Source: an uncultured Gammaproteobacteria bacterium (GTDB taxonomy: Bacteria; Patescibacteriota; Patescibacteriia; Magasanikbacterales; GWA2-37-8). From it: a stretch of DNA of 64,000 nt. Position numbers and translations under genes: made by a program. The notes below the pieces were generated by a model. It did no database searches. It had not been told where the DNA came from and was given only the letters and a program-made list of their open reading frames with translations. Position 1 is the stretch's first letter, and every line of letters begins with the position of its first letter. Below are positions 15,527 to 31,329 of this stretch, one piece after another. The stretch lies in contig CAZINT010000003.1 in assembly GCA_964540825.1 (NCBI GenBank), positions 147,250 through 211,249 of the forward strand, in the 5' to 3' direction.

Positions 15527-15610
15527 GCCCAGATGGCGGAACTGGTAGACGCACGGGACTCAAAATCCCGCGATGGCGACATCATGAGAGTTCGATTCTC
15601 TCTCTGGGCA
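15527..15610 (+). tRNA. tRNA-Leu (anticodon CAA), long variable arm
   Basis: Acceptor GCCCAGA/TCTGGGC, anticodon loop CTCAAAA, long variable arm, T-arm GAGAG-TTCGATT-CTCTC, discriminator A. Confidence 0.85.
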
Positions 15611-15656
15611 CTAAACTAAATACAGCTCCTCACAACGGGAGCTGTATTTAGTTTAG
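15611..15656 (+). terminator. Perfect 19-bp-stem hairpin immediately 3' of tRNA-Leu
   Basis: ctaaactaaatacagctcc / ggagctgtatttagtttag with an 8-nt loop, followed by TTCT. Confidence 0.5.
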
Positions 15657-15766: not shown

Positions 15767-15782
15767 TTCTCTCTCTGGGCAC
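15767..15782 (+). repeat. Direct repeat of the 3' 16 nt of tRNA-Leu (attR-like integration scar)
   Basis: ttctctctctgggcac is identical to 15596..15611 (T-loop end, T-stem, acceptor 3' strand, discriminator). Confidence 0.6.
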
Positions 15783-15837: not shown

Positions 15838-15998
15838 TTTTGACTGCTTACACACACTTAATCCCATGCTTAACGCTCATCAAGTCTTGACAAAACGAGA
15901 AATGTATCCCAGTATACGCGCACCAGAAAGTAGCGCGCACTAGATGCGCGCCTGGCCCTGTCTGCAGTGGTTTCTAAAAGAAGAGTGGGAGGATGCCT

Positions 15999-16355
15999 AT
16001 GCGATGGCTTGGAATTTTGTTTTTAGTAGCTGGCTGCGAGGCGAGCCAGCCAGCGCAGCCCGAGGCGCGAGACGGCGGCGCGACCGCCGACCTTGTCCAC
16101 CACCCTCGCTCCGATGGAGGCGTTGCCTGCACTCTAGCAGCGCCTCAAGACTGCCGCCTCGTCCTTGAGGGACCGAACTGGTGCTGCCCTGAGAGCGCGC
16201 TCTGCGGCGGCAGCGTGGGAGCGTGCGAGCCGTGCCCGTCCATGCGGGGGCTGCGCGAGCACGAGTCCGGACCAGGGCTCTGCTACAACCAGATCTGCTG
16301 CCCGAGCGGCCGCTCGTGTGCGGTATCCGGGCCAGGCCAGTACTTCTGCAACTGA
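15999..16355 (+). CDS. Hypothetical cysteine-rich lipoprotein (G+C-rich block)
   Basis: SD GGGAGG 6 nt before ATG 15999; MRWLGILFLVAGC lipobox signal peptide; 11 more Cys in about 105 aa (CC, CxxC pairs). Confidence 0.45.
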   Translation: MRWLGILFLVAGCEASQPAQPEARDGGATADLVHHPRSDGGVACTLAAPQDCRLVLEGPNWCCPESALCGGSVGACEPCPSMRGLREHESGPGLCYNQICCPSGRSCAVSGPGQYFCN

Positions 16356-17625: not shown

Positions 17626-17690
17626 GAAAAAGTGAAAGACCCACGAATGGGTCAGGCGGAGGATGACCGGCCGAAGCCAGGGTCATCCAC
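17626..17690 (-). terminator. Conserved family terminator cassette (two hairpins) 3' of gene 17716..18933
   Basis: Coding-sense CCTGAC-GACCCATTCGTGGGTC-TTTCACTTTTTC preceded by hairpin GGATGACC..GGTCATCC; identical copy at 23903..23965. Confidence 0.55.
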
Positions 17691-18090
17691 CTGGGGGTGG
17701 AAGGTACGTTCGGCGCTACCGAGGCAGCGCGGGCGAGAGAAGGAGGGGCGCGGTCGGAGCAGCCGGTCCGACGAGCTGCCAGATACTGTTTCCGATCTGC
17801 ACCCAGTACGAGCCGGCGGGGGCGCCGGCGGGAAGGGTTGCAGTGTAGGCGCTGCTCAGGGCAACGACGTCGAGGGCGACCATGCCTCCGGCGACGATCG
17901 CTCCAACAGCGAGGAGGCCGGCGAGCGTAGCTCTGCCGTTCGAGCCGTCCGGCGAGATGTAGTCCGGGCGGCCGCCCGGACCGATGACGAGACCCCTTCT
18001 TCGAGCAGCTGTTACATCCCCGAACATGCTGCCGGGGCCACTCCAGATGCGGACGGTCTGGGGGGTGGGGGTGGTGGGAGGGGTGGGGGT
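17635..18090. repeat. About 455-bp direct repeat copy 1 (pairs with 23911..24376)
   Basis: Essentially identical for about 325 bp then about 90% identical; covers the C-terminal module plus terminator of two paralogous genes. Confidence 0.85.
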
Positions 18091-18933
18091 GAGAGGAGGA
18101 TACCCCATTTGTTCCGGGCTGGGGAGAGGGCCATAGGTCCCATTGTAGCGCGGCCCACCTGGCGGCGGCGGAATCAGCGGAGTTGGGTTACCAGGACTCC
18201 AGACCCCCGAACCGGGCTGTCCGGGCTGCGGGCCAGTTTGGAAAAAGGCTTGCGGCCCGGTTCCAGGCCTGATTCCTGCCGGCGGCGGGAGCGGTGGCGG
18301 GAGTGGCAGCGGAGCTCCGGGTGCCCGATAACCCCCTGGTGGCAAGAGTCTGCCTCCGGGGGCTTGGTACCGCAGGCCGCCCGAGGGCGGATCGCCCCCC
18401 GGACAAGGCGGCTGCCCGAGTCCGCCACAGAAACGCGCACCAAGGATGCCGAGCGCTGCAGCAGCAGGAACTAGCAGGTTCAACGGTGAAAGTGTGCCTG
18501 GTGCGGCGAGCGGAGCAAGATCGGCGCCTTTTAGATCAAGGTGGTAGTGGTACTTCTCGAGGGCGTCCTGCATCTTCTCGATATCCATTTCGGGGTGGCG
18601 CGAAAGATAGTCGCGCACAGCTTCGGAGCCGATATGCCTGATCAGATTAGCCCGCGCAAGACGAGGAATCGAGCCCCACTCCTCAGGGGTATACCTATGC
18701 GGGGTCTCGATGTAGTCCGTTAGTCCGCACACCGGACAGTGCCCCTGGGGCTTGATGCGAACCAGCGGTGGCACTTCGAACACCATCACAGTGGCATCTG
18801 GCATGATCTCGGCAGGTGGCTGGCCGGCCTCGCGCATGCCCTCGTGGTTACAAATATGGGGCTGGTAGGCAAAGGCCCGCACGCTGGCGAACCAGCACAG
18901 CAGCATCACGGCCAATGTCACAATTCTTTTCAC
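17716..18933 (-). CDS. Secreted modular protein, type-A C-terminal module (unique Cys/His N-domain + Pro/Gly-rich linker)
   Basis: GTG start with perfect SD AGGAGGTGA; signal peptide MKRIVTLAVMLLCWFASVRAFA; PPLPPP/TPTPPTTPTP linkers; hydrophobic C-terminus GLLAVGAIVAGGMVALDVVAL...WQLVGP. Confidence 0.7.
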   Translation of the reverse strand: MKRIVTLAVMLLCWFASVRAFAYQPHICNHEGMREAGQPPAEIMPDATVMVFEVPPLVRIKPQGHCPVCGLTDYIETPHRYTPEEWGSIPRLARANLIRHIGSEAVRDYLSRHPEMDIEKMQDALEKYHYHLDLKGADLAPLAAPGTLSPLNLLVPAAAALGILGARFCGGLGQPPCPGGDPPSGGLRYQAPGGRLLPPGGYRAPGAPLPLPPPLPPPAGIRPGTGPQAFFQTGPQPGQPGSGVWSPGNPTPLIPPPPGGPRYNGTYGPLPSPEQMGYPPLTPTPPTTPTPQTVRIWSGPGSMFGDVTAARRRGLVIGPGGRPDYISPDGSNGRATLAGLLAVGAIVAGGMVALDVVALSSAYTATLPAGAPAGSYWVQIGNSIWQLVGPAAPTAPLLLSPALPR

Positions 18934-19222
18934 AGATCACCTCCTGCTCGCCACGGCGAGCGTCGTTGTTTGATACCCTGAACAGAGTGCCGCCTCAAAC
19001 CAATAAGGCTGCTCCCACATGTCGTTCTTCTTTCCTCCTTTTTTAAAAATCAATCCAGTGACCAAGTACTTCCTGATCGCTAGAATATTATTTTAAAATA
19101 AGTATTTTTTATATTTTCACCCCTCTCGTTCAAAGTCAGTGGTTCCTTGTTTGTTTCCTAAGCATAAGAAACAAAGTGAGGGCGACTTTGAACGAGAGAA
19201 GAATTTGCAAGCCGCCCGGTTG

Positions 19223-20203
19223 TCAGTGCTGACGATCACGCCGCGGCTGACCGGAGATCAGCATCTGATAGAGCTGCCGTGCTCTGGCTCGCCAGTACTG
19301 CTCACGCTGCGCACGGAAAAGCGGACGGTTGATATTACTTGGCTGGCTGCCAGTGTTAGGGTGGTGGTACTGGTAACCAATGGGTCCGCGGTGGATATGC
19401 CGCGGCAGCTCAACCAGCGGACTTCCCTGCCGCTGACCATCGTGATGTAGCTCGACCGGTTTGCCAAAAAACTTGTCGAGCGGGGGTGAGCCGTTGGCCA
19501 TGAGGAGCAAGTTGAACAAGTTCATCTCGTAGTAGAGACCGGCCCAGCCCTGATGCCGGAACGGCGCTGACCCATCGGAATTGAACTGGTTGCGGAGTGC
19601 CTGATAACTCATGTCGAGGACACCAGTCATCGTAGTCCCCACAAAAGGTGGCTGCGCGTCTTCTTCAGCTGCCACATAGTAACAAGTCTCGTCGACTGGT
19701 GTTCCTGGAGCAAAGAACGACTGGTTTCCCAGCGATTGTCCGGGCAACACGAGGCCACGACCTTGCGGCATCGGCTCGCCAAAAGCAGGAGCGCTGCCAG
19801 GTATCCCCGGCAAACGAAGCGGGCCAACGAGCGGCTGACCGGGCAACTGGAGTGTTTGGGGGCCACCAGGCAGACCTGGTCCACTCAAACCGCCGCCACC
19901 TTCCACTGCCGGACCGGAAACCGGCGGAAGCGGCAACCGCTGACCAGGGCCAGGGCCTCCAACCGGTCCGATAGTGTCAGTTCGCTGCCCGGTCGGAAGA
20001 TTCGGAAGATATTCGCCGACAAGTGGCGAAGCTGGCGCTCCACCACCCAGTGGCGGAAGCCCGGGCGCACCACGCCCCGGAATACGGAACGCAGGCGGCG
20101 GGAATCCTCGTTGGATGACCTGAGCCCTTACCGCATAGGGCGTAAAGAGCGCCACCGCACAGACGAGCACTGCAAGACACGATCGCAAACACCTGAATGG
20201 CAT
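19223..20203 (-). CDS. Secreted Pro/Gly-rich protein with a unique C-terminal globular domain
   Basis: SD AAGGAGG; signal peptide MPFRCLRSCLAVLVCAVALFTPYAVRA; long PG-rich linker; its own long inverted-repeat terminator at 19121..19192. Confidence 0.65.
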   Translation of the reverse strand: MPFRCLRSCLAVLVCAVALFTPYAVRAQVIQRGFPPPAFRIPGRGAPGLPPLGGGAPASPLVGEYLPNLPTGQRTDTIGPVGGPGPGQRLPLPPVSGPAVEGGGGLSGPGLPGGPQTLQLPGQPLVGPLRLPGIPGSAPAFGEPMPQGRGLVLPGQSLGNQSFFAPGTPVDETCYYVAAEEDAQPPFVGTTMTGVLDMSYQALRNQFNSDGSAPFRHQGWAGLYYEMNLFNLLLMANGSPPLDKFFGKPVELHHDGQRQGSPLVELPRHIHRGPIGYQYHHPNTGSQPSNINRPLFRAQREQYWRARARQLYQMLISGQPRRDRQH

Positions 20204-20313
20204 GTACAGCCTCCTTATGAGTTACTATTCAAGCAGACACTTTTTTCACAATGCTTCAATTTTCCCTACATCATACTTTCCCCTCCCTCCCCACTCCAAG
20301 AAATATTCTTGAC

Positions 20314-20341
20314 GTCGGAAGGAAGACTCGCGAAGCGAGTC
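20314..20341 (-). terminator. Conserved family terminator (GACTCGC-gaa-GCGAGTC + TTCCTTCC)
   Basis: Same CCTG-GACTC-loop-GAGTC-TTC motif as the other five cassette terminators. Confidence 0.5.
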
Positions 20342-20374
20342 AGGATGATCAATGAGCGGAGGCGGGTTCTCCCC

Positions 20375-21334
20375 TTACTGCAGCAGTGGCAGCAGGAGCC
20401 CGGGGGGCCTTGTGCCGGGTAGGACTGGGAGACCGGGCCCCGAGGGCGGCAGGCGCAGCGGGCCTAGCGGGAGGGTGGCAGTGGGGGTGAGAAGCACCGC
20501 TCCAGCAGCGGCAGCAGCAGGGATCAGTCGATAGGCCTGTTTGGTCGCAGCGTCGACCACTGCCAGGCAGCGTCCCGGAACTGCAGCACAGGCGGTACCG
20601 ACGACGGCGACAGCTTGAGCCGTGTAGTAGGCTCCGACCAAGATGACGATGCCGCCTGAGACGAGTGCGCCGTTGACGGCGACCTGGAGGGGGGTCTCCG
20701 GGTAGCCGCCGAAGGCTCCTCCGCCGTCGGGGACCCAGCCGCGGAGGCCGCCAAGGGGATTTTGACCAAAGGCTCCGGGGGTGGGATAGGCAGGCAGGAG
20801 ACCGCGATTGAGCTGCCCATCAGGGACACCCAGCGGTCGCCAGCCTTTGTATGCAGCCTGCGGCGCCTGCACACGAGCAGGCCCACGTGGCGTATCATTG
20901 CACTCCAAACTCCCGACAGTCGGAATGGCGTTGCCTTGGCATACCATTGGTCCGGGTATACCCTGAACACTGAAGAGGGAGACACCGGGGAACATGGAGC
21001 GAATCATAGATTCATTTCCATCCTGCATACTGTAGGGGTAAAGTGTAAGGCGCCACACTCCCACGCCGAAGTCTCCGGTCTCCACGTCCCGAACATAGCA
21101 GTGATCAGCGGCACCGGGCCGTTGGCGCCAGAGCTGCCAATGACCGTGCTCCGGCGGGCTGCCGTTCACCCGACTGGTCCGAAGCAAATAGAAGTTTGGC
21201 CCGGGGAAAACCAGCACCACCACGTTGCAGACCACCATAATATCCCTATTGTCAGGTGGCGGAACTGCTTGTGCGAGTGGTGGCTGACTGGCCAGCGCCA
21301 ACAGCAGCAAGGCTATCATTTTCAACCAACGCAT
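20375..21334 (-). CDS. Secreted modular protein, type-B C-terminal module
   Basis: Start at internal Met MRWLKMIALLLLALASQPPLAQA (signal peptide, SD AAGGAAGG); C-terminal module PLQVAVNGALVSGGIVILVGAYY..GTACAAVPGRCL..LIPAAAAAGAVLLTP + Leu/Pro tail. Confidence 0.65.
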   Translation of the reverse strand: MRWLKMIALLLLALASQPPLAQAVPPPDNRDIMVVCNVVVLVFPGPNFYLLRTSRVNGSPPEHGHWQLWRQRPGAADHCYVRDVETGDFGVGVWRLTLYPYSMQDGNESMIRSMFPGVSLFSVQGIPGPMVCQGNAIPTVGSLECNDTPRGPARVQAPQAAYKGWRPLGVPDGQLNRGLLPAYPTPGAFGQNPLGGLRGWVPDGGGAFGGYPETPLQVAVNGALVSGGIVILVGAYYTAQAVAVVGTACAAVPGRCLAVVDAATKQAYRLIPAAAAAGAVLLTPTATLPLGPLRLPPSGPGLPVLPGTRPPGLLLPLLQ

Positions 21335-21657
21335 GCGTTTGTCCTTCCTTTTGTGATGTCTACGAGTTTGCCGACCGCCGGCACACTTTTCTCCTCTCCC
21401 GAAAAACATGTTTATATTTTTCGGGAGAGAAATAAATTCAAACATTCTCATCGTGAATATAATGAGAATAAGTACATGTTCAAATTTTTCCTTTAGTGAT
21501 ACTCACAAGCGTAAGTATTCAACACAGGAGCCGAAGAGTGTCGGCTGCACCTAGTTACTTTTTTCTTAATCTACCTACGACCACCACCTGACTCGCATCA
21601 GGTGGTGGTCGTCCCCTCCTGTGAATCCGGTCTCACGCGCCGGCGACGGTTGGATTG

Positions 21658-23385
21658 CTATCGGCGATAGGCGAAGCCGAACTCCGGAAGGACGGTGAAG
21701 CTCTCACGAGAGTAGCCCGTCGTCTGGCTTGGCATGACGAGCACCACGTTGTCCGGATTGGACCGATCGACTACCGGCTCTCCAGTCACGAGTTCGCCAG
21801 TTGACCGCAGGTACCCGACGGTAGCAGCAGCAAAGAAACCGAACTGGCGACGAATACCGCTCTTGCCCAGGTAGACCTCGATCGATGGCTTGAACCCCAG
21901 CAAGAAGTACTTCTTCGAAGAATCGCCCTTCTGACGGAACTCTTCGTCTGACAGGTCATGACCGCCACCGCCGATGACAACCCCGAGATCGATAGCAACA
22001 TTTGGACTGGGGTTATAAGAATACCCTCCGTACCCGACAGCAGCGACATCATTCCTGCCTGAGAGCTGCAGGCTCAGACCTCCACAGATGGCGTTGTTGC
22101 TCAGCTGGTTGTGAAAGAAACAGAACTTGCCGCCCAGATTTCCACCAAGCGCACCCTCGCGATTCAGCTCGTAGCGAAAGAGTCCGCCCCCGTAGAGCGT
22201 CATCATGAAGTTGCTGTCACCCCGGTCCGCCTGGATCAGGGCCCGCTGAGCGCCGATAGCACCGGTGCAGTATTGGGCGACCTGGATGGGATCGAAATTC
22301 TCGCCGCCGGCCACGTTCCGACGCACCCACCGCTCGCAATCCTTCGCGCTGCTGAACTCCGGGGGGTTGGCGGGGTTGCCGGTGAGCGGCCGGCTACCGA
22401 CCTGAGCCTGAGGCAGTGTTGCTCCGGGCGGCTGAGCAGTCTGGGGGTTGCAGTAGGCATTCACCCCCTCTGGGGTGTTCTGCGCGGCGGTCCCGACCGC
22501 CTTGAGATACTCCCAGGTCTTGGCCACGCAGTCGGGGCTGCCCGGCTGCGGCTGCTGGGGTGCCTGACCCTGGATGCGCGGAGCCAGCTGGTGGGCCTGC
22601 GCCGTGAGCGTCTGGCACGTGGCGTCCTTCCCCTGAGGGTCGTGCTGGTAACAGCAGCCCACTACCATGCCCTTGTTTGAGAAGCACTGCTGCAGGTTGC
22701 CTCCCAGGCTGGCATCGGCCACACGTGCGACCCGGCACAGGGAAACGTTTGCCGACTCGGCAGGGAAAGAGTCGCAGCAGGCCCGCACTCGCTCGTTGAC
22801 GGCCTGAGGGGTATTGTAGCTTGCGTCCGCGGTTGGTGATGGGGCGGTCGTCTGGGCGAGACACGTCTCGAGGAGCTGAGCGGGCGGAACAGCCGCAGGC
22901 CCCGCGGTGAGGGGGGCGCCCGCCGTGCCCGGCAGGGGCGCCGGAGGGGCGGACTGCGGAGCCACAGGAGGGGCAGCCGCAGGGGCGGGGGCGGCTGGCG
23001 TGGAGGCGACGGCGACGGGCGGCGACGTACTGCTCAGCTGAGTGACAGCACCGCTCGCCTGCTGGCACAGGCTCCTGAAGAGGCGGCCGTTCGGCGTGTT
23101 GGTCTGCTGAGCAAGGTGGTTTGACCAGCAGCAATTCTGGGTTCCGCGCCAATAAGCCGCCAAGTCCTTGCTCTTGTCCGGGACCACCGTCAGGCAGCCC
23201 TTCATGGCAGCAACCGATGCGTCGATCATCTCCCGTGAGGGCGGGCCAGCTACTTGCGCTGTGGGGGCGCTGGGCTGGCTGCTGGCCGCCGGCTTGGCAT
23301 CGGCGTTGGCGTGCAGTGGCGCGAGCCACAGCAAGAGTAGCGTCAGCAAAGCCGCTGACAGGCACGAAAACTTGGATCGTGACAT
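21658..23385 (-). CDS. Secreted Cys-rich repeat protein with a Gly/aromatic-rich beta-type C-terminal domain
   Basis: Start at MSRSKFSCLSAALLTLLLLWLAPLHANA with SD AAGGAGG; three or more C..CC..C repeats separated by Ala/Pro linkers; C-terminal about 200 aa with alternating hydrophobic/Gly/aromatic pattern ending FGFAYRR. Confidence 0.65.
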   Translation of the reverse strand: MSRSKFSCLSAALLTLLLLWLAPLHANADAKPAASSQPSAPTAQVAGPPSREMIDASVAAMKGCLTVVPDKSKDLAAYWRGTQNCCWSNHLAQQTNTPNGRLFRSLCQQASGAVTQLSSTSPPVAVASTPAAPAPAAAPPVAPQSAPPAPLPGTAGAPLTAGPAAVPPAQLLETCLAQTTAPSPTADASYNTPQAVNERVRACCDSFPAESANVSLCRVARVADASLGGNLQQCFSNKGMVVGCCYQHDPQGKDATCQTLTAQAHQLAPRIQGQAPQQPQPGSPDCVAKTWEYLKAVGTAAQNTPEGVNAYCNPQTAQPPGATLPQAQVGSRPLTGNPANPPEFSSAKDCERWVRRNVAGGENFDPIQVAQYCTGAIGAQRALIQADRGDSNFMMTLYGGGLFRYELNREGALGGNLGGKFCFFHNQLSNNAICGGLSLQLSGRNDVAAVGYGGYSYNPSPNVAIDLGVVIGGGGHDLSDEEFRQKGDSSKKYFLLGFKPSIEVYLGKSGIRRQFGFFAAATVGYLRSTGELVTGEPVVDRSNPDNVVLVMPSQTTGYSRESFTVLPEFGFAYRR

Positions 23386-23817
23386 TGGACGGACCTCCTT
23401 GCCCACTCTGGGCAATGACTGATGGTTTCAATCTTTTTCAATCAGTGGGCAGCCACTTTGGCCGCCATGATGAATACGATATCCCCCATTCAGCTAAGAC
23501 AAATAGGCTCTCTACCGGTCTTAATTGAATGGGGGAATTTTTCTAATTATTTTTTAAATGAACACACACTGTATTCGTCCTTATTTGTCAGACAGTCTAA
23601 CAATCTAAAATTGCTCTGGGTAAAGGACAATGTTTTTCAGAGCAAAACGAGTAGTACCACATTTTGGCCGAAACGTCAATATAGGTTGAGGTTTTTGTAT
23701 CCACAGATCAAATTAGGTCTTTTTTAGCTAAAAAAATAATCTTTTATCGTGATTACCGCCTCCTCCCGGGATTCAAGCTGTAGTTACATTTCTTTTTTAA
23801 ACTGAAATATCTATACT

Positions 23818-23848
23818 TAAAAAACTTACTTAAAAAGTAAGTTTTTTA
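23818..23848. terminator. Perfect bidirectional hairpin terminator
   Basis: aaaaaacttactt-aaaaa-gtaagtttttt. Confidence 0.6.
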
Positions 23849-23902
23849 GCGAATATTCAGCATCTTTTTCTTTCTTGAACTCCAAGATACATGCTTAGAA
23901 TA

Positions 23903-23965
23903 CCAGAAAGAAAGACCCACGAATGGGTCAGGCGGAGGATGACCGGCCGAAGCCAGGGTCATCCA
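23903..23965 (-). terminator. Conserved family terminator cassette, copy identical to 17626..17690
   Basis: GACCCACGAATGGGTC hairpin plus upstream GGATGACC..GGTCATCC hairpin. Confidence 0.55.
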
Positions 23966-24376
23966 CCTGGGGGTGGAAGGTACGTTCGGCGCTACCGAGG
24001 CAGCGCGGGCGAGAGAAGGAGGGGCGCGGTCGGAGCAGCCGGTCCGACGAGCTGCCAGATACTGTTTCCGATCTGCACCCAGTACGAGCCGGCGGGGGCG
24101 CCGGCGGGAAGGGTTGCAGTGTAGGCGCTGCTCAGGGCAACGACGTCGAGGGCGACCATGCCTCCGGCGACGATCGCTCCAACAGCGAGGAGGCCGGCGA
24201 GCGTAGCTCTGCCGTTCGAGCCGTCCGGCGACATGTAGTCCGGGCGGCCGCCCGGACCGATGATGAGACCCTTTCTTCGAGCGGCTGTTACATCTGCGAA
24301 CACCCAATCGGTCCAACTGCCCCTACCACTCCAGACGCGGACGGTCTGAGGGGTGGGGGTGGTGGGAGGGGTGGGA
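23911..24376. repeat. About 455-bp direct repeat copy 2 (pairs with 17635..18090)
   Basis: See copy 1. Confidence 0.85.
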
Positions 24377-24975
24377 GATTGGCCAGGCTGTTGAAGCCCC
24401 ATTCCCGGTCCTTGTAGGCCTGGGAGCGGGCTGGGGGGCGGCGGGTATGTAGGAAGACGAAGCGGACCGGGGGCAGGGGTGTATTGGCCAGGGAGGGGCA
24501 GACCCGGAGGTTGGCCTTGAGGGCCGGATGGCGTTCCCATCATCATCTTCAGACCGGGCGGATAGTACCGCCCACCCGCTTCAAATACGGTTGGCCCCGA
24601 GGGAGTAGCCTGTATGTACATGGGCGCTCGGGGCGCCGGGTGATCCGGTCCTTGGCCACGCCTGCCATAGCAGGGGTCCTGGGGGTTTTCAGCATTACCA
24701 AAGATCACTTTGTTTTCCGTGATCTGCTGAGCGAGCCGCTGAGAATCGAGGGCATCAAGACTAAACCGATTAACAAAAAATTCCTCGTGCAGACGATTTT
24801 GCACCGCCGACTCTCGGTAGTCCCGTTTGACAATGGACTGGTCGGGGCAGATGTAAAACTGAATAAATATCGGCCGCCCATCCGGCCCCGTCGGGAACAG
24901 CTGAGCGCCGCCTTGTCCGGCCAGAACAAAAAAGAACACTGTCGCGAGAACTACTGTTGCTACTATTCGCGTCAT
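23992..24975 (-). CDS. Secreted modular protein, type-A C-terminal module (different N-domain from 17716..18933)
   Basis: SD AAAGGAGT; signal peptide MTRIVATVVLATVFFFVLAGQGGAQ; C-terminal 110 aa identical to gene 17716..18933. Confidence 0.7.
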   Translation of the reverse strand: MTRIVATVVLATVFFFVLAGQGGAQLFPTGPDGRPIFIQFYICPDQSIVKRDYRESAVQNRLHEEFFVNRFSLDALDSQRLAQQITENKVIFGNAENPQDPCYGRRGQGPDHPAPRAPMYIQATPSGPTVFEAGGRYYPPGLKMMMGTPSGPQGQPPGLPLPGQYTPAPGPLRLPTYPPPPSPLPGLQGPGMGLQQPGQSPTPPTTPTPQTVRVWSGRGSWTDWVFADVTAARRKGLIIGPGGRPDYMSPDGSNGRATLAGLLAVGAIVAGGMVALDVVALSSAYTATLPAGAPAGSYWVQIGNSIWQLVGPAAPTAPLLLSPALPR

Positions 24976-25056
24976 GACGTTGTTACTCCTTTCATGACTG
25001 ACCTAAGACCACTTTGGTGCTTTATTTTTCTCCTTTTCTGGTTTATAAAAAAACCA

Positions 25057-25085
25057 ACTAAACTGTCCTCCAAGAAACATGTCAA
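25057..25085 (-). promoter_or_regulatory. Sigma70-like promoter TTGACA-N17-TTTAGT for gene 23992..24975
   Basis: Hexamers read on the minus strand in the AT-rich spacer. Confidence 0.4.
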
Positions 25086-25167
25086 TTGGTTTTTCTAAAA
25101 AATAATTTTAAATGCATTAAAACAAATATTTTACTTTCCCTTTTCTCACCAGAACACCAAAGTTCCA

Positions 25168-25198
25168 AAGGAAAAAAGGAAGACTCGGCGAGCGAGTC
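25168..25198 (-). terminator. Conserved family terminator (GACTCG-gcgag-CGAGTC + TTCCTTTTTTCC)
   Basis: Same motif class as the other cassette terminators. Confidence 0.5.
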
Positions 25199-25241
25199 GA
25201 GGCAGGAAGTTCAAAGAGCAGCAGACAGCTGCCGGGTACGT

Positions 25242-26333
25242 CTAGCGGAGCAACGGAGCCGCTGGAAGGTACAATGACGCTGCCGGTTTCGCCAGCTGCC
25301 AACCCAAGTTGCCAACCTTGATCCAGATGGATCCGAGCGGAGCGCCCGGTGGCAGTGTTGTTGTGACGGCAGCATCAAGCGCTACCCATTCGAGAGCGAC
25401 GAGGCCGGCAGCCACAACTGATCCGACAGCGAAGAAGCCAACCAGACTGCCTTGGGCGTCTTGCGCCGGATCTCGCGATCCGAGTTCGGGTCCAAAGGGA
25501 CCCCAACGAACACCCCCGGCTCTGGCCTCTTGTTGGCCCTGAAGCCCTTGTCTGAAGGCAGAGAGAAGACCACTACTTACTCCACGGTAGATGCGGAGGC
25601 CGAGGTTGGATGGGGGTGGTAGCTGAAGCGTAGAAGGAGTGCCGGGAAGTGCCGGGGTGGTAAGCTGGGGTGGGAGGCGGAGTGGAGACGCAGGTTGTGC
25701 AAAAACGAGTTCACCACTTGGTGTTGGCGCTCGAAAAAATACCGGTCCACGCCGAGGCAGCGTTTCAGCTACAGGATTTTCTTGTCCGGAAGTCTGGGGT
25801 CCGCGCGGACGGCAATCCCCCACTTTATGTTTTTGGTTACAGGAATTATGTAGACCCCACATCTCCCGAACACCACTCGGATAGTTCCAGTACAGAATCG
25901 AGTACTCGCTTCGAGGCGGACCAAGCACCGGAGCGAGCCCGGCGATATCATCGTCGTTCAAACGGAAGTACTGATCCCCTTTGTATCCTTGGCGCTCTTC
26001 GCGCTCCCCCGGACCAAAAAGATCACGCTGACGCTGCCACCGATAGAGCCAGGTGGTGTCGACCGAGCTCTGCACCTTGTACCACCAACCGCTTGCGCTG
26101 CAGAACCCTTCGATGATGTAGTGAGCCTTTTGACCCGCCCATGGGTCGACGGTTCTTCCCAGCGGCCCGACCTCATGGCCGATTCGGAACTGAATAAGGG
26201 TCGGGTGGTTACAGTGCGGACACAGCGTGCTCGCTTCCGGCTGATGGACGATCTTGGGGTCTTTCTGCCCCCATGCGATAGACGGGCTTGCGAGAAGCCC
26301 GACAAAATAGAGTGCAAGCCAGAACAGTTTCAT
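25242..26333 (-). CDS. Secreted modular protein, divergent type-A C-terminal module
   Basis: SD GGAGGT; signal peptide MKLFWLALYFVGLLASPSIAWGQ; Cys-containing N-domain; C-terminus LVGFFAVGSVVAAGLVALEWVAL..TLPPGAPLGSIWIKVGNLGWQL. Confidence 0.7.
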   Translation of the reverse strand: MKLFWLALYFVGLLASPSIAWGQKDPKIVHQPEASTLCPHCNHPTLIQFRIGHEVGPLGRTVDPWAGQKAHYIIEGFCSASGWWYKVQSSVDTTWLYRWQRQRDLFGPGEREERQGYKGDQYFRLNDDDIAGLAPVLGPPRSEYSILYWNYPSGVREMWGLHNSCNQKHKVGDCRPRGPQTSGQENPVAETLPRRGPVFFRAPTPSGELVFAQPASPLRLPPQLTTPALPGTPSTLQLPPPSNLGLRIYRGVSSGLLSAFRQGLQGQQEARAGGVRWGPFGPELGSRDPAQDAQGSLVGFFAVGSVVAAGLVALEWVALDAAVTTTLPPGAPLGSIWIKVGNLGWQLAKPAASLYLPAAPLLR

Positions 26334-26463
26334 TGAGTACCTCCAACGATGTATAAAATACTTACATAAAGAAGCGTGTGTGTCAATCTAGTTACAAAAA
26401 CCGTCTCGTAATTTTTAGGCAACCACCAGTTCTTTTCCTTCCCTATCTAAGAACAACTTCTTA

Positions 26464-26493
26464 AAGAGAGAAAGAAGACTCAGAAATGAGTCT
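26464..26493 (-). terminator. Conserved family terminator (AGACTCA-gaaa-TGAGTCT + TTCTTTCTCTC)
   Basis: Same motif class. Confidence 0.5.
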
Positions 26494-26543
26494 TGGCGGG
26501 AAGGACAAGGAACATGAGGCGGGCGTGACAAGTACTCACAAGC

Positions 26544-27434
26544 CTACGGCATCCAGAGAGGGGGCGGAGCGGACGGAAGGAGGAGTGGACGCGAAGGTTT
26601 GGCGTCCATCACGGGTGTCAGTACCGTTGCCCCTAGCGAAGCGACTCCGAACACGGGAACCAGACGCCAGATCTGACGAGTAAGGGCATCTTGGACGAGC
26701 TTGCAGCTCGCGGGACTACTCAGACAGGCGCTAGCAAGCACGGTCGCACTCTGGACGAGGTAGACTGACCCATAGTAGACCACGAAACCGCCTGCGATGA
26801 TGGCGCCACCGGCTACGACTTGGGTAGGAGTCACCGGATAGCCGCTGACACCTCCCCCGTCGCCGGGTGACCAGGTGCTGCCAGGCGGAGCGAGGATAAG
26901 GGCGCGCGGGGTGGGGTGGGTGGGATAGGCAGGCGGCTGCGGACCACCCGGGAGGGGTGGGGGCAGGACGGGCGGTGGCGGAGTTGGAAGGGGTGGGGGC
27001 AGGGCAGGCGGCGTAGGGGCGGCGGGTGGCCGGATATTCGGCGCCAGCGGAGCGAGTCCGAACGAGGGCAGGCGTGGAGGGCCAACGAGCACATGTTCGG
27101 CCTCCCCGGGTCTGGGGCGAGCGTAGCGCACCCTGCCATCCGGACCGATCTCGATGACAGGCTGCAAAGCACCGGGCGGCACCGGAGCACCCGGTTCCGC
27201 GGGCTTGACGCCATTTCCCTCGAGCCAACGATCTCCCAAAGACTGCTTGGACGGGACCTCCACCAGCTTCCCATCCTTCCATTCGAAAGCCGGGCCGCCG
27301 CCTCCTGGCTTCGGCGGATCACTCCCTGGCGGCGAGGCATAGGCGAAACGGATCCATAGCACGTTCCAGATTTGATCCGGTCTGACCAGACCAAGCGCGA
27401 CACAACTCAGAATACACAGCAGCAATCGTTGCAT
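26544..27434 (-). CDS. Secreted modular protein, type-B C-terminal module, extremely Pro-rich N-region
   Basis: Start at MQRLLLCILSCVALGL with SD AAGGAGGTG; PPALPPPLPTPPPPVLPPPLPGG linker; C-terminal module VTPTQVVAGGAIIAGGFVVYYG...ASACLSSPASCKL...LGATVLTP. Confidence 0.65.
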   Translation of the reverse strand: MQRLLLCILSCVALGLVRPDQIWNVLWIRFAYASPPGSDPPKPGGGGPAFEWKDGKLVEVPSKQSLGDRWLEGNGVKPAEPGAPVPPGALQPVIEIGPDGRVRYARPRPGEAEHVLVGPPRLPSFGLAPLAPNIRPPAAPTPPALPPPLPTPPPPVLPPPLPGGPQPPAYPTHPTPRALILAPPGSTWSPGDGGGVSGYPVTPTQVVAGGAIIAGGFVVYYGSVYLVQSATVLASACLSSPASCKLVQDALTRQIWRLVPVFGVASLGATVLTPVMDAKPSRPLLLPSAPPPLWMP

Positions 27435-27662
27435 GCGCACCTCCTTTTCAAAAACGTTTTTGGAACAACCTTGCACTGACACAACTGTAGCGGTGCACAA
27501 CTAGCATTTTTACCGCTAGTCATGCCGACTGATTTCAGTTGAGCAGCAGCATTGTGTAGTACACAAAAAATGTGCAATTGTCAAACACATACTCGACTAC
27601 CGCTACCCATAGCTCGCGAAGCTGTTAAATTCACGAACACACACTTTTTCATATCTTTAAAA

Positions 27663-27700
27663 ACTCCTGCAAAAGAAATGCTGCAGGAGTTTTTTTAATC
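27663..27700. terminator. Perfect bidirectional hairpin terminator
   Basis: aaaaactcctgca-aaagaaatg-ctgcaggagttttttt. Confidence 0.65.
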
Positions 27701-27748
27701 GACGGCCAAATTGTATATTCTTTCTTTTCTCCCAAAATTTTTCTTAGG

Positions 27749-27779
27749 AGCAGAGAAAGAAGACTCAATGAATGAGTCT
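27749..27779 (-). terminator. Conserved family terminator (AGACTCA-atgaa-TGAGTCT + TTCTTTCTCTGC)
   Basis: Same motif class. Confidence 0.5.
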
Positions 27780-27823
27780 CGGCAGGTGAATCAAAGAGCG
27801 ATGGGCAGGTTGTGGTTCAAAAC

Positions 27824-28903
27824 CTACGGCAGGCGCAGTTGCTGCGGCCGAGGCGTTCCGGGGAGGAGCGGGAGGCTCAGGCCAGGTGTAGGTAAGCGCA
27901 GTTGCCCGGGGGGAGGAGCAGTGACGGGGGTGAGTATCACCGCTCCTAGAGCGGCAGTGCCAGCGGCCGGAATGAGATTCCAGACCTGCCGGGTGGCCAC
28001 ATCGATCACCTTCAGGCACCTTGCTGGAGCAGCAGCACAGGCTGTGCCAATCGCAGCGGCAGCCTCAACAACGTAGAATGCTCCAAGAAAGCCGACAATA
28101 GCACCGGCTGCAATGGCGCCGTTAACAGCGACTTGGGTTGGAGTTTCGAACGAAGGGATAGGTCCTCCAGCGCCATCGGTCAATACCAACCCGCTACCGG
28201 GTGGATGGAGGCGGAGGGCTTCAGAGGAAGGGTAGAGAGGAGTCAAAGCAGGCTGCGGCGCAAGCAAGCCGGGCTGCGGCACCGCTTCGCGCCTTAAGCC
28301 CAGCACACGTTTCCACAAAGGCGCCTGCGCCGCCTCAAATTGCTGCTGCTCCTGCACATCCCCTTCTCCGGGGCACCGCAGCGCTTCCCACCGGAGGTTT
28401 GCGGGCGGATATACGCCTGACTCACAAAAATTCAACGATAACAAGTGAGACATTTCTATATCCTTCCACCAACTATTAGGGTCCAGCGTCAGCCTACGCA
28501 GCGGCTTGGGGTTGTATACAACCCACTGATTGGGCGTTTCTGGCGACACCAGTTCACCCATTATCTCGTGATCATCTTCTGTTCGCGGCGAAATGTGCCT
28601 TGTAGCACCAACCCGCACCGGGATGTCACCAATCTTGCAAAATCGAGCTGGGCCGGCTTGCAGCGCACCACCATACTTTTTCCAGAGCACCCAGACCTGT
28701 TGCACACCTGTGTCAAGACTATTCTTTTTGACCGCAACAAATTCCCTGCCCTGTTTGACCAACCCCAGGTCGAACGTGAGTCGGTAAAAATGGATTATGT
28801 TGCACTGGGCCGGCTCAAAGGGAGCCTGTGCAAAAGCTGCCTTCGATATTCCCAGCACGACACATATCAACAAAAGAGCACGAAAATACACAGGCAAGGA
28901 CAT
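27824..28903 (-). CDS. Secreted modular protein, type-B C-terminal module (about 170-aa unique N-domain)
   Basis: SD GAGGTGAT; signal peptide MSLPVYFRALLLICVVLGISKAAFAQA; C-terminus ETPTQVAVNGAIAAGAIVGFLGAFYVVEAAAAIGTACAAAPARCLKVIDVATRQVWNLIPAAGTAALGAVILTP + LP-rich tail. Confidence 0.7.
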   Translation of the reverse strand: MSLPVYFRALLLICVVLGISKAAFAQAPFEPAQCNIIHFYRLTFDLGLVKQGREFVAVKKNSLDTGVQQVWVLWKKYGGALQAGPARFCKIGDIPVRVGATRHISPRTEDDHEIMGELVSPETPNQWVVYNPKPLRRLTLDPNSWWKDIEMSHLLSLNFCESGVYPPANLRWEALRCPGEGDVQEQQQFEAAQAPLWKRVLGLRREAVPQPGLLAPQPALTPLYPSSEALRLHPPGSGLVLTDGAGGPIPSFETPTQVAVNGAIAAGAIVGFLGAFYVVEAAAAIGTACAAAPARCLKVIDVATRQVWNLIPAAGTAALGAVILTPVTAPPPGQLRLPTPGLSLPLLPGTPRPQQLRLP

Positions 28904-30347: not shown

Positions 30348-30462
30348 AAACATTTTTAAAAGCTTTTCTAGCGTAGCTGTTTTTAGCCAAAAAGGCAAGT
30401 GGAAAAGAGAGTTGCAAAAAATACGCGTCACTGTATACTCGACTCAGAATGGAGGGTCCACA

Positions 30463-31329
30463 ATGGTACAGCATTTGAGCGCAGCAGAGATCGTCGACTT
30501 TCTCGAGCGCGAACGAATTTCGCCCTTTCCTATGAAAACCAGCGATCTACTCCCCGGACTTTTGCGGGGGTGGATTCACCTGGTTCAAAATCCGCCCCAG
30601 CTGCCGCGCGCCTGGGAACACGGCAAGGAGACACCGCTCGGCCAGATTCCGGACTACGATCACGGTTATTTTGAACTTGTTGGCCAGGACGATCCTGCCA
30701 ATCCGGACTCGAAGAAGGATCGCAAGCGAGTTCTGCATGTCAGGAAGCATCTGCCGGCGCTTCTTGAAAAACAAAATCCTGCCTTCCTTCGGGAACACGG
30801 CGCTTTGATCTACGCCTCGCTCGAGCTTTTGGAGCGTTCGCTCCACGCCGTTTTGCCGGTCGCCAAGGAGATCGACCTCAGATTCAAAACCGATCTTGCT
30901 CAGCGCCTTTTTACCCCAAAGGACGATCACGTCGTTCGCCATCTGGCGTACACCGAAGTCCGTCCGGATTCGCTCAACGAAGGGGTCATCGGCCAAGGCC
31001 ATCGCGATCGTTCGGCCAAGACCCTTACGGTGCTCGAGACCAGACGCGGAGTTCAGATTATGACTCCGGAGGGCTGGAAAGACATCGTTTCGAGTAGGCC
31101 CGACTGCCCCAACCTCTTCACGTCGGCTAAGACCGAGGTGGCGACAGCTGGCGGTCTCCTGGCCCTTCCCCACCGGGTGGTTTCATACCCAACCGCCAAT
31201 CAGATGGACACCATCCTCGACGAACTCGGGATCGAGCTCCCACCCGAGATCCTCCGCGTGTCCATGATCGTGTTCCTCCACTACCACGGAATCGAGATCC
31301 CTTCCACGTACCAGACCCGGTACCCATAG
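30463..31329 (+). CDS. Hypothetical protein (G+C-rich, no membrane segments)
   Basis: Strong SD GGAGGG 6 nt before ATG 30463; 289 aa; no recognisable family by eye. Confidence 0.5.
   Translation: MVQHLSAAEIVDFLERERISPFPMKTSDLLPGLLRGWIHLVQNPPQLPRAWEHGKETPLGQIPDYDHGYFELVGQDDPANPDSKKDRKRVLHVRKHLPALLEKQNPAFLREHGALIYASLELLERSLHAVLPVAKEIDLRFKTDLAQRLFTPKDDHVVRHLAYTEVRPDSLNEGVIGQGHRDRSAKTLTVLETRRGVQIMTPEGWKDIVSSRPDCPNLFTSAKTEVATAGGLLALPHRVVSYPTANQMDTILDELGIELPPEILRVSMIVFLHYHGIEIPSTYQTRYP

What the first reader, a model, noticed from the sequence alone, without database searches (positions are those of the whole stretch)
17626..28903. Tandem array of eight secreted, modular, Pro/Gly/Ala-rich proteins sharing two conserved C-terminal hydrophobic modules: candidate novel variable surface-protein system
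Eight genes sit on the same strand (17716..18933, 19223..20203, 20375..21334, 21658..23385, 23992..24975, 25242..26333, 26544..27434, 27824..28903). Each starts with a canonical signal peptide and each has its own strong SD (AGGAGG-type) and its own AT-rich upstream spacer with promoter-like hexamers. Six share one architecture: signal peptide, an unrelated N-terminal domain, a Pro-rich linker (PPLPPP, TPTPPTTPTP, PPALPPPLPTPPPP), and then one of two conserved C-terminal modules. Type A is ..GLLAVGAIVAGGMVALDVVALSSAYTATLPAGAPAGSYWVQIGNSIWQLVGP.. (genes 17716, 23992, 25242). Type B is ..TPTQVAVNGAI.AGAIVGFLGA.YVV..A..IGTACAA.P.RCL.V.D.AT.Q...LIPAAG.AALGA.ILTP.. followed by a Leu/Pro tail (genes 20375, 26544, 27824). 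Both modules contain one or two transmembrane-like Gly/Ala-rich segments and match none of the sorting signals I know (LPXTG, PEP-CTERM, PGF-CTERM, GlyGly-CTERM). The layout of a variable head on a constant anchor resembles variable surface antigens or adhesins. In an organism with CPR-like features (a likely episymbiont) this would be a host-attachment or immune-evasion system.
Basis: partly seen in the sequence, partly recalled or inferred. Interest (0 to 1): 0.85.

Follow-up and report, generated by a model that had tools for sequence, protein, structure and literature searches.

The report
Orphan secreted-protein gene array in CPR bacterium
A candidate-phyla-radiation bacterium carries eight tandem genes for exported proline-rich proteins; six end in one of two hydrophobic tail modules seen almost nowhere else in public data, most likely membrane anchors for surface proteins, and no switching or sorting system was found.

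Summary
Eight same-strand genes (17716-28903, minus strand) each have a signal peptide, an AGGAGG-type ribosome-binding site and mostly their own terminator hairpin. Six carry one of two C-terminal hydrophobic modules: type A in G1, G5 and G6, type B in G3, G7 and G8. The genes are real. Between paralogues the modules have saturated synonymous sites and dN/dS of 0.21-0.38, and a second organism conserves a type A tail next to a G2 homologue.

It also missed that G4 has a different, Cys-rich and beta-rich design without an anchor.

The host is a Patescibacteria/CPR bacterium: no uL30, and EF-G is closest to named Patescibacteria and Magasanikbacteria MAGs.

A profile search of 1.84 billion protein-cluster representatives found only the array's own proteins plus one 91-aa fragment. 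Pfam, NCBIfam, PADLOC, PHROGs and PDB sequences gave nothing for the modules or the heads.

Best reading: lineage-specific, Sec-exported surface proteins held in the membrane by a C-terminal helix or hairpin, on conserved Pro-rich stalks, with heads reshuffled by recombination. I found no dedicated sortase, no switching mechanism and no immunity genes. "Variable antigen system" is therefore only partly supported. Interest is moderate.

The parts
27824..28903 (-). G8: signal peptide, about 190-aa Cys-containing head, Pro-rich stretch, type B C-module (module about 27824-28156)
   Evidence: (P0002)
26544..27434 (-). G7: signal peptide, short head, long Pro-rich stretch (20% Pro), type B C-module (about 26544-26846)
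   Evidence: P0001. Strain variant: 15 nt differences in module codons 204-283, 9 of them at third positions
25242..26333 (-). G6: signal peptide, about 180-aa head with CPHC, Pro-rich stretch, diverged type A C-module (about 25242-25616)
   Evidence: (P0006 is a strain variant)
23992..24975 (-). G5: signal peptide, about 120-aa head, Pro-rich stretch, type A C-module (about 23992-24363)
   Evidence: P0004
21658..23385 (-). G4: signal peptide, Ala/Pro-rich region with repeated C...CC...C units (19 Cys), about 190-aa all-beta-looking C-terminal domain ending FGFAYRR. No A or B module.
   Evidence: AF2 model is all-beta but low confidence, pLDDT 39
20375..21334 (-). G3: signal peptide, about 130-aa head, type B C-module (about 20375-20710)
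   Evidence: P0003
19223..20203 (-). G2: signal peptide, about 145-aa conserved Pro/Gly-rich region, C-terminal domain containing LHH nuclease (LHH domain about 19274-19513). No hydrophobic anchor.
   Evidence: Pfam PF14411 at 2.1e-14, profile positions 2-76 of 76. The ELHH tripeptide and downstream H-I-H are present in the sequence. The Pro-rich part is 60% identical to the homologue in L087, with pS 0.72 and pN 0.24.
17716..18933 (-). G1: GTG start, signal peptide, about 150-aa head with CPVC, long Pro-rich stretch, type A C-module (about 17716-18072)
   Evidence: P0005 is the alternative start call. The head differs at 42 nt and 15 aa in strain SRR12901024.
17634..17933 (.). 300-nt stretch 100% identical to 23910-24209: the last 72 codons of G1 and G5 plus 82 nt of 3' flank including the terminator. 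Recent gene conversion or duplication tract.
   Evidence: dS 0.06 for the G1/G5 tails against saturation for the other pairs
23910..24209 (.). Second copy of the 300-nt identical tract (G5 3' end plus flank)
27760..27780 (-). Terminator-like hairpin after G8. Related hairpins (GACTC...GAGTC followed by TTC-rich run) follow G7 (26475-26494), G6 (25182-25198), G5 (23914-23929), G3 (about 20325-20341) and G1 (17638-17653). G4 has a 15-bp perfect stem (21577-21612).
23386..23991 (.). Longest AT-rich spacer (606 nt, 40% GC) between G5 and G4. It holds the G4 promoter region (TTGACG, 17 nt, TACTAC) and hairpins. No convincing gene.

Best explanation
The locus is a lineage-specific cluster of eight separately transcribed genes for Sec-exported proteins, built by tandem duplication. 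It sits in the core chromosome of a Patescibacteria (CPR) bacterium.

Six genes encode cell-surface proteins. Their proposed route is:
1. The signal peptide takes the protein through SecYEG and is cleaved.
2. The strongly hydrophobic C-terminal module acts as a stop-transfer segment and stays in the cell's own membrane. Type A is one Gly/Ala-rich helix with a conserved buried Asp/Glu, followed by a conserved about 45-aa tail. Type B is a helical hairpin with a short, positively charged CxxxPxxC turn.
3. The Pro/Gly-rich region, which carries recurrent (P)L[RQL]LP motifs, acts as a wall-spanning and probably ligand-binding stalk.
4. The unrelated N-terminal domain is displayed outside.

The other two genes have no anchor and are presumably released or wall-associated. 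G2 is an LHH nuclease on the same kind of Pro-rich region. G4 is a Cys-rich, beta-rich protein.

New head and anchor combinations arise by recombination in the stalk or anchor region.

Shown: export signals, module conservation under purifying selection, modular shuffling, extreme phylogenetic restriction, and CPR origin.

Inferred: membrane retention, topology, surface display, and a role in contact with a host cell or in scavenging.
For: - Export signals: signal peptides and SD sites on all eight genes.
- Hydrophobicity: 19-residue Kyte-Doolittle peaks of 2.2-2.3 for type A and 1.5-1.9 for type B at the C-termini only. By the established stop-transfer behaviour of SecYEG, such segments in a Sec substrate are retained in the membrane.
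- Type B topology: the turn carries +3/-1 charge in all three copies, and the flank before the first helix is neutral or acidic (sequences). This fits N-out, loop-in, C-out under the positive-inside rule.
- Structure model: AF2 draws the type B module as two long helices, but at low confidence.
- Selection on the modules: dN/dS 0.21-0.38 with saturated dS.
- Selection on the stalk: the G2 Pro-rich region has pS 0.72 and pN 0.24 against a second organism.
- Motif: L[RQLP]LP occurs 13 times against about 1.5 expected.
- Modularity: heads are unrelated while the G1 and G5 tails are 100% identical over 300 nt including the 3' flank.
- Strain mosaic: G1 head 11% nucleotide divergence, G7 tail about 6%, G2-G3 about 0.1%, EF-Tu region 0.6%.
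- Host: CPR. There is no uL30 between S5 and L15, named EF-G relatives are Patescibacteria, and an LCP wall-polymer ligase is in the window. This fits a monoderm-type wall that a Pro-rich stalk could span.
- No match to any known anchor or sorting family.
Against: - No localisation, expression or structural data exist.
- Both AF2 models are unusable (pLDDT 34 and 39).
- The type A tail after the helix is nearly uncharged, so its side of the membrane is undetermined.
- The most conserved part of type A is the tail motif (T-L-P-x-G-A-P-x-G-S-x-W-x-x-x-G-N-x-x-W-Q-L-x-x-P-A-A), not the helix. A conserved acidic or polar residue also sits inside the helix. Both are more than a passive anchor needs.
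- G2 carries a toxin-type nuclease at the position the modules occupy in the other proteins, which allows a "warhead" reading.
- The host-interaction role is conjecture. No host is known.
Confidence: 0.5

Rival explanations
1. A Sec-exported effector or bacteriocin-like arsenal. The C-terminal position is a "warhead" slot: LHH DNase in G2, and membrane-inserting glycine-zipper helices or hairpins (types A and B) in the others. The variable heads bind receptors on a host or competitor, and the Pro/Gly-rich region acts as a disordered translocation segment. This is functionally analogous to nuclease versus pore-forming colicins.
For: - G2 has a complete LHH domain, a family defined as a C-terminal toxin unit of polymorphic toxin systems (PMC3113570).
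- It sits after the same kind of Pro-rich region as the modules.
- The modules are Gly/Ala-rich with a conserved intramembrane acidic or polar residue.
- The layout is variable N-terminus plus exchangeable C-terminus.
- CPR bacteria live on other cells (PMC11623550 and PMC13059738 abstracts).
Against: - No immunity-type gene follows any of the eight genes. The spacers hold only ORFs of about 60 aa or less, mostly 30-48 aa, apart from one non-hydrophobic 101-aa plus-strand ORF in the G5-G4 spacer.
- There are no SUKH, colicin or glycine-zipper Pfam hits.
- Segments this hydrophobic in a Sec substrate should be trapped in the producer's membrane. Pore-forming colicins are not Sec substrates (textbook knowledge).
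- The polarity is the reverse of polymorphic toxins, which have a constant N-terminus and a variable C-terminus.
Confidence: 0.15
2. The modules are C-terminal sorting domains recognised and processed by an unidentified dedicated enzyme, that is, a new sortase- or exosortase-like sorting system encoded elsewhere in the genome.
For: - The conserved motif next to a TM helix at the extreme C-terminus, with a conserved terminal Arg in type A, resembles the logic of tripartite sorting signals.
- Several paralogues share the tail.
Against: - The modules are 80-120 aa, far longer than known sorting signals.
- The motif follows the helix, not the other way round.
- There are no LPXTG, PEP, PGF or GlyGly motifs and no NCBIfam sorting-signal hit.
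- No candidate enzyme lies in 64 kb.
- The family has only about 7 members in 1.84 billion cluster representatives, unlike sorting systems, which have many substrates and wide distribution.
Confidence: 0.07
3. This rival concerns origin and does not exclude the others. The cluster is a horizontally acquired island from a GC-richer, SD-using donor, inserted between tRNA-Leu and asnS.
For: - The genes are 58-66% GC against 43-51% for core genes, with GC3 of 0.57-0.76 against 0.36-0.53.
- All eight have strong SD sites while the core genes shown have none.
- A tRNA-Leu lies about 2 kb from the first gene, with a 16-nt repeat of its 3' end.
- Some Parcubacteria lack the anti-SD motif (PMC9297842).
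Against: - No donor homologues exist anywhere in the 1.84-billion representative library.
- Synonymous codon choice for Pro, Gly, Ala and Thr is close to the core genes, so much of the GC excess follows from the P/G/A/R-rich composition.
- A core-like metallophosphoesterase gene sits between the tRNA and the array.
- There is no integrase or transposase.
- The spacers are AT-rich like the host genome.
- A second related organism has the same design.
Confidence: 0.25
4. The ORFs are chance open frames in GC-rich non-coding DNA.
For: Several long overlapping ORFs occur in other frames, as expected in GC-rich DNA.
Against: - dN/dS is well below 1 with saturated dS between paralogues and between organisms.
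- Strain differences show a third-position excess.
- Signal peptide, SD and terminator bracket exactly these frames.
- G2 has a full-length Pfam domain.
Confidence: 0.01

Closest known systems
Gram-positive wall-spanning surface proteins (LPXTG/sortase substrates such as M protein)
   Same: Signal peptide, displayed N-terminal domain, Pro/Gly-rich wall-spanning segment just before a C-terminal hydrophobic segment. The host cell is monoderm-like.
   Different: There is no LPXTG-type motif, and the conserved motif lies after the helix, not before it. The tail is 45-60 aa or a second helix, not a short basic tail. No sortase lies nearby.
Paralogous variable surface-protein arrays of host-associated bacteria (for example Mycoplasma Vsp/Vlp lipoprotein clusters)
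   Same: A tandem cluster of paralogues that share one membrane-anchoring end and differ in the exposed part. Recombination occurs between paralogues.
   Different: The anchor is a C-terminal helix or hairpin, not an N-terminal lipid. No invertible promoter, slippage tract or silent-cassette mechanism was found. All genes look independently expressible.
Polymorphic toxin systems with an LHH (HNH/EndoVII) C-terminal toxin (Zhang, Iyer and Aravind 2011, PMC3113570; Zhang et al. 2012, PMC3482391)
   Same: G2 has a bona fide LHH domain at its C-terminus. The array shows exchange of C-terminal units.
   Different: There is no immunity gene and no RHS, CDI, T6SS or T7SS trafficking domain, only a Sec signal. 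The variable part is N-terminal.
Colicins (pore-forming versus HNH nuclease types)
   Same: Analogy only: receptor-binding part, disordered Gly/Pro-rich part, and a C-terminal hydrophobic helical hairpin or an HNH-superfamily nuclease.
   Different: No sequence relationship, Sec signal peptides, no immunity or lysis genes, chromosomal core location.
Hypervariable repeat surface protein of a Gracilibacterium (PMC6851277)
   Same: A CPR organism with a Pro-containing, extracellular, membrane-tethered protein at a locus that breaks assemblies and varies between strains.
   Different: That case is a single gene with a PTD tandem repeat and an N-terminal TM helix. There is no shared sequence or architecture.

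Membership tests
LPXTG / sortase-anchored proteins | LPXTG-like pentapeptide followed by a hydrophobic segment and a basic tail at the C-terminus | tested here: not met
   The regex found no LPXTG-like motif near any C-terminus. No NCBIfam sorting-signal model hit at E<=1.
LPXTG / sortase-anchored proteins | A sortase encoded in the genome, often nearby | tested here: inconclusive
   None among the ORFs of 150 aa or more scanned in the 64-kb window. The rest of the genome was not available.
PEP-CTERM, PGF-CTERM, GlyGly-CTERM and MYXO-CTERM type sorting signals | Signature motif, then a TM helix, then a basic cluster, within about 25-35 C-terminal residues | tested here: not met
   No NCBIfam hit. 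No PEP or PGF motif and no GG in the last 40 residues. The modules are 80-120 aa.
Pfam LHH nuclease (PF14411), for G2 only | Full-length match above the gathering score, with the LHH tripeptide and two downstream His | tested here: met
   53.9 bits against a cut-off of 23.3, profile positions 2-76 of 76. ELHH...RHIH is present in the sequence. The defining features come from PMC3113570.
Polymorphic toxin-immunity system | Immunity gene immediately downstream of the toxin gene | tested here: not met
   The 289-nt spacer after G2 holds only ORFs of 40-42 aa. The next gene, G1, is itself exported. No SUKH or other immunity family hit.
Polymorphic toxin-immunity system | Conserved N-terminal trafficking region with variable C-terminal toxins | tested here: not met
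   The polarity is reversed: heads are unrelated and tails are shared.
Pore-forming colicin or glycine-zipper bacteriocin families | Sequence match to the pore-forming or glycine-zipper domain models | tested here: not met
   No Pfam hit at E<=1 for whole proteins, or at E<=10 for the isolated head and G4 C-terminal segments. The profile against PDB sequences gave only E>0.6.
Phase- or antigenically variable surface-protein system | A switching mechanism: invertible promoter with recombinase, slippage-prone repeat in the promoter or 5' CDS, or silent donor cassettes | tested here: not met
   No flanking inverted repeats beyond terminator hairpins. The only tandem repeats are in-frame 6-18-nt Pro-coding units. 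No recombinase was found. All copies have a start codon, SD and terminator.
Phase- or antigenically variable surface-protein system | Exposed parts vary faster than anchors or neighbours between strains | tested here: inconclusive
   The G1 head is 11% divergent against 0.1% for G2-G3 and 0.6% at EF-Tu. However, the G7 tail and spacer are also 5-6% divergent, and a non-array stretch (47964-48474) is 7% divergent. Only two strains were compared, on fragmentary contigs.
Diversity-generating retroelement target | Adenine-specific substitutions relative to a template repeat, with a nearby reverse transcriptase | tested here: not met
   The strain substitutions are of all types. No template repeat was found and no RT among the window ORFs of 150 aa or more that were scanned.
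Candidate phyla radiation (Patescibacteria) organism | No uL30 between uS5 and uL15, and closest relatives are CPR genomes | tested here: met
   S5 (37004-37513) is followed after 30 nt by L15 (36536-36973) (the criterion is from PMC9297842). The top five EF-G hits (95-75%) are MAGs titled 'uncultured Gammaproteobacteria', which I take to be mislabelled but did not verify. The nearest named relatives are a Patescibacteria MAG (75%), Magasanikbacteria (71-72%) and Uhrbacteria (73%).

The most novel reading that the evidence does not exclude
The two C-modules are not passive anchors. They are a new class of oligomerising membrane-insertion devices: glycine-zipper helices or hairpins with a conserved buried acidic residue. 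An epibiotic CPR cell would use them, together with an LHH DNase on the same Pro-rich delivery region, to breach or plug into the membrane of its host cell, with the interchangeable heads setting host specificity. The strong SD sites, in a genome whose core genes have none, would then mark a separately regulated or acquired attack module.
Probability: 0.1. Interest if true: 0.75.

Novelty: new variant of a known kind. Interest (0 to 1): 0.42.

Why it matters
How CPR/Patescibacteria recognise and exploit their host cells is largely unknown outside a few cultured Saccharibacteria, where type IV pili are implicated (PMC11623550). This locus is a compact, testable set of candidate contact proteins. 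It offers six heads on two previously undescribed anchors, a secreted HNH-superfamily nuclease that fits nucleotide scavenging or attack, and evidence of head and anchor reshuffling and strain mosaicism.

The family is restricted to essentially one lineage. It is therefore more likely a species-level adaptation than a general principle, which limits its reach. The contrast between SD-led array genes and SD-less core genes is a separate small puzzle about translation initiation in this clade.

Tried and rejected
1. The search for homologous proteins was run three times: type B profile, type A profile and the G2 C-terminal half. All returned nothing and did not even recover the query proteins, which are known to be in the collection. 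I treat these as failed searches, not as evidence. The first two hit the 8000-candidate limit.
2. Collection scans found no relatives: genome contigs with type B, viral contigs with types A and B, and metagenome contigs with type A and with G2. The metagenome scan also missed the 1.1-kb JGI contig that holds P0007, so short contigs are evidently not covered.
3. AlphaFold2 on G8 (3-sequence alignment) and on the G4 C-terminal domain (single sequence) gave mean pLDDT of 34 and 39. I ran no fold search because matches to such models are meaningless.
4. Homology between types A and B: the alignment looks plausible (TM helix, conserved Pro turn, W-x-L-x-P-A-A). It is not significant (hhalign probability 2%, E 0.02; cross-profile scores exceeded about 99% or more of shuffles for only 2 of 6 sequences). 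I left it as a possibility.
5. G3 and G8 heads as homologues: z = 2.7 only.
6. DGR, prophage, defence-system and plasmid-like readings: no support.
7. Island boundaries from tRNA-Leu: the 16-nt repeat of the tRNA 3' end recurs only 171 nt away, not at the far side of the array.
8. The accession SRR11567528 is not mentioned in the paper library, so the habitat is unknown.
9. The combined A+B profile used for the exhaustive search may have lost some sensitivity for very distant relatives of either type. It did recover a 48%-identical fragment at E = 8e-6.

Full report
**What is there.** Eight ORFs lie head to tail on the minus strand between 17716 and 28903. In transcription order they are G8 (27824-28903), G7 (26544-27434), G6 (25242-26333), G5 (23992-24975), G4 (21658-23385), G3 (20375-21334), G2 (19223-20203) and G1 (17716-18933).

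- Independent gene calls on short-read assemblies of three sequencing runs use the same starts for G2-G8.
- Every product begins with 1-2 basic residues, a hydrophobic core and an AXA-type site. G7 is the least typical.
- Every gene has an AGGAGG/GGAGG-like site upstream.
- The genes are separated by AT-rich spacers of 171-606 nt. These contain a hairpin plus T/C-rich run just after the stop codon, and in five cases an exact or near-exact TTGACA box 17 nt before a weak -10 element.
- The generic promoter scan is not enriched over shuffles.
- The hairpins and the sequence after them resemble each other from gene to gene, and resemble those in a second organism. Whole cassettes including the 3' flank were therefore duplicated.

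**Are the genes real?** Yes.

- Long ORFs in other frames are expected at 58-66% GC, but the annotated frames show protein-level selection.
- Between paralogous C-modules, synonymous sites are saturated (pS 0.64-0.72) while pN is 0.26-0.41, giving dN/dS of 0.21-0.38.
- Differences between strains fall preferentially on third codon positions.
- A 1.1-kb JGI contig from a different organism (L087) encodes the end of a type A protein. Its ORF is open to the contig edge and has the same VR(V/I)(Y/W)xG...TM...tail layout. It is followed by a terminator hairpin, an AT-rich spacer, an SD site and a homologue of G2.
- The Pro/Gly-rich part of G2 is 60% identical to that homologue, with pS 0.72 and pN 0.24. 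The "linker" is therefore itself under strong constraint.

- Type A (G1, G5, G6) spans about 120 aa. It consists of a short conserved pre-segment, a Gly/Ala-rich helix with a conserved Asp/Glu inside it, then T-L-P-x-G-A-P-x-G-S-x-W-x-x-x-G-N-x-x-W-Q-L-x-x-P-A-A, a Pro/Leu tail and a terminal Arg.
- Type B (G3, G7, G8) spans about 100-110 aa. It consists of T-P-x-Q-V, a long Gly/Ala-rich helix, a C-x-x-x-P-x-x-C turn, a charged amphipathic stretch ending W/Y-x-L-(I/V)-P, a second hydrophobic stretch and a Pro/Leu tail.
- The two types can be aligned plausibly, but the relationship is not statistically supported.
- The heads are unrelated to each other and to anything in Pfam, NCBIfam, PHROGs, PADLOC or PDB sequences.
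- A short motif, (P)L[R/Q/L]LP, recurs 13 times in stalks and tails against about 1.5 expected.

Two genes differ from this plan.

- G2 has no head and no anchor. After a 145-aa Pro/Gly-rich region it carries a complete LHH domain (PF14411, 2.1e-14). The LHH tripeptide and two later histidines are present. These are the features by which the family was defined as a derived HNH/EndoVII nuclease and as a C-terminal toxin unit (PMC3113570).
- G4 is an Ala/Pro-rich protein with 19 Cys, repeated C...CC...C units and a beta-rich C-terminal domain of about 190 aa with no database match.

**Organism and surroundings.**

- The window is core chromosome. It encodes RecG, an LCP-family enzyme, Der, Pth, DprA, TopA, a RelA/SpoT homologue, ParB, ParA and tRNA-Leu on one side of the array. 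On the other side are AsnRS, RecO, Map, Adk, SecY, the ribosomal protein cluster, EF-Tu, EF-G, UvrD, Tgt and a class I Trp/Tyr-type aminoacyl-tRNA synthetase.
- uS5 is followed directly by uL15 with no uL30, a CPR hallmark (PMC9297842).
- EF-G is 95% identical to one unnamed MAG, and 71-75% identical to named Patescibacteria, Magasanikbacteria and Uhrbacteria MAGs.
- None of the window ORFs of 150 aa or more that I scanned matches a sortase, dedicated protease, recombinase, transposase, reverse transcriptase or immunity-type family.

**Distribution.**

- A profile of both modules was searched with HMMER against 1.84 billion cluster representatives. It found only seven proteins: the six array members (one as a strain variant, one with the alternative start) and the 91-aa JGI fragment.
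- Each protein's 90% cluster has one or two members, drawn from one NCBI contig of 215 kb, three SRA runs and one JGI sample.
- Pattern scans of genome, metagenome and viral collections found nothing more.
- The three word-index searches failed their own positive control and are disregarded.
- The modules are therefore orphan, lineage-restricted inventions.

**Dynamics.**

- The last 72 codons of G1 and G5 plus 82 nt of 3' flank are 100% identical over 300 nt. Their heads are unrelated, and the other paralogue pairs are saturated at synonymous sites. This indicates recent gene conversion or head swapping with a breakpoint in the TPTPP stalk.
- I compared the window with strain contigs from SRR12901024. 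G2-G3 differ at about 0.1%, G6 at 0.7%, the G7 tail and adjacent spacer at 5-6%, and the G1 head at 11% (15 of 167 residues). The EF-Tu region differs at 0.6%, but a stretch next to it differs at 7%.
- The array is thus a recombination mosaic and the G1 head is the most divergent piece seen. With two strains and fragmentary contigs, this is suggestive only.
- No switching device was found: no invertible promoter, no slippage tract and no silent cassettes.

**Composition puzzle.**

- The array genes are 58-66% GC (GC3 0.57-0.76) in a genome with 43-51% GC genes (GC3 0.36-0.53).
- Synonymous choice within Pro, Gly, Ala and Thr is close to the core genes. Leu, Val and Arg are shifted. Much of the GC excess therefore follows from the P/G/A/R-rich composition.
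- The sharper contrast is in ribosome-binding sites. All eight array genes have strong SD sites, as do two other exported or membrane proteins (15993-16355 and 34330-35088). Well-anchored core genes (EF-G, EF-Tu, SecY, Adk, TopA, ribosomal proteins) have none.
- Part of the Parcubacteria lack the anti-SD motif (PMC9297842). The 16S gene is not in the window, so this cannot be resolved here.
- Horizontal origin is possible, but no donor homologue exists in public data.

**Interpretation.**

- A strongly hydrophobic C-terminal segment in a Sec substrate is expected to be retained in the producer's membrane. This follows from established translocon behaviour.
- In type B the charge distribution fits N-out, loop-in, C-out.
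- A Pro-rich segment next to the anchor is the classic layout of wall-spanning surface proteins in monoderms.
- The best-supported mechanism is therefore display of interchangeable heads on conserved stalks, held by two new anchor modules, alongside a released nuclease and a Cys-rich protein.
- Three features go beyond what a passive anchor needs: the conserved tail motif, the buried acidic residue and the nuclease in the equivalent position. They keep an effector or membrane-insertion reading alive at roughly 10-15%.
It is unsupported on mechanism (switching, sorting enzyme) and on function.

**Verdict.** This is a real, well-delimited, lineage-specific orphan family. It is a new variant of the familiar theme of paralogous anchored surface proteins in a host-dependent bacterium. 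It has moderate interest (0.42), well below the 0.85 first assigned. The reasons are that the family is confined to one narrow lineage, no new machinery is evident, and the function remains inferred.

Noticed in passing
window 15596-15611 and 15767-15782: The last 16 nt of tRNA-Leu(CAA), TTCTCTCTCTGGGCAC, recur exactly 171 nt downstream (0.04 expected by chance). This looks like an att-type scar of a small insertion or excision at the tRNA. No integrase is in the window and there is no third copy beyond the array.
   Followed up: partly
window-wide; examples 49994-52075, 46535-47725, 35172-36449 against 17716-28903: Core genes with well-anchored starts have no Shine-Dalgarno sequence. All eight array genes, plus 15993-16355 and 34330-35088, have AGGAGG-type sites. 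Some Parcubacteria lack the anti-SD motif (PMC9297842). The 16S gene is not in the window.
   Followed up: partly
window 15993-16355 (+): A GC-rich (67%, GC3 0.74), SD-led ORF of 120 aa with a lipoprotein-type signal (LVAGC) and 14 Cys including CC doublets (WCCP, ICCP). The doublets are reminiscent of the C...CC...C units of G4. No family match.
   Followed up: partly
window 34330-35088 (+): An SD-led, GC-richer (GC3 0.62) polytopic membrane protein with no Pfam match. It is inserted between adk and secY on the opposite strand.
   Followed up: no
window 47964-48474: The stretch next to tuf is only 93% identical between the window and strain SRR12901024, while tuf-rpsJ is 99.4% identical. It is a second local divergence hotspot outside the array. 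The ORF there (47825-48364) is doubtful.
   Followed up: no
window 36536-37513: uS5 is followed after 30 nt by uL15. uL30 is absent, as in all CPR.
   Followed up: yes
L087 (JGI 3300045333, Ga0490007_060921) 1-1148: The only non-self relative found. It has a type A tail (48-53% identity) followed by a G2 homologue (60%). The gene order differs from the window, where a type B gene precedes G2. The design is otherwise the same: GC-rich CDS (65-68%), AT-richer spacer (47%), hairpin and SD.
   Followed up: yes
window 18837-18933 (G1 5' end) and 21335-21451 (upstream of G3): Public annotations disagree on starts. G1 is held as a 373-aa product from an internal ATG that lacks the signal peptide. A 344-aa version of G3 is also on record (P0008). 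The SD-proximal starts used here give signal peptides.
   Followed up: partly
window 30412-31329 (+): An ORF with GC3 0.67 and no family match overlaps the 5' end of asnS on the opposite strand. Its start is uncertain and it may be a further non-core gene bordering the array.
   Followed up: no
tool behaviour: The word-indexed protein search did not recover query proteins that are demonstrably in its collection. Negative results from it should not be trusted for these sequences.
   Followed up: yes
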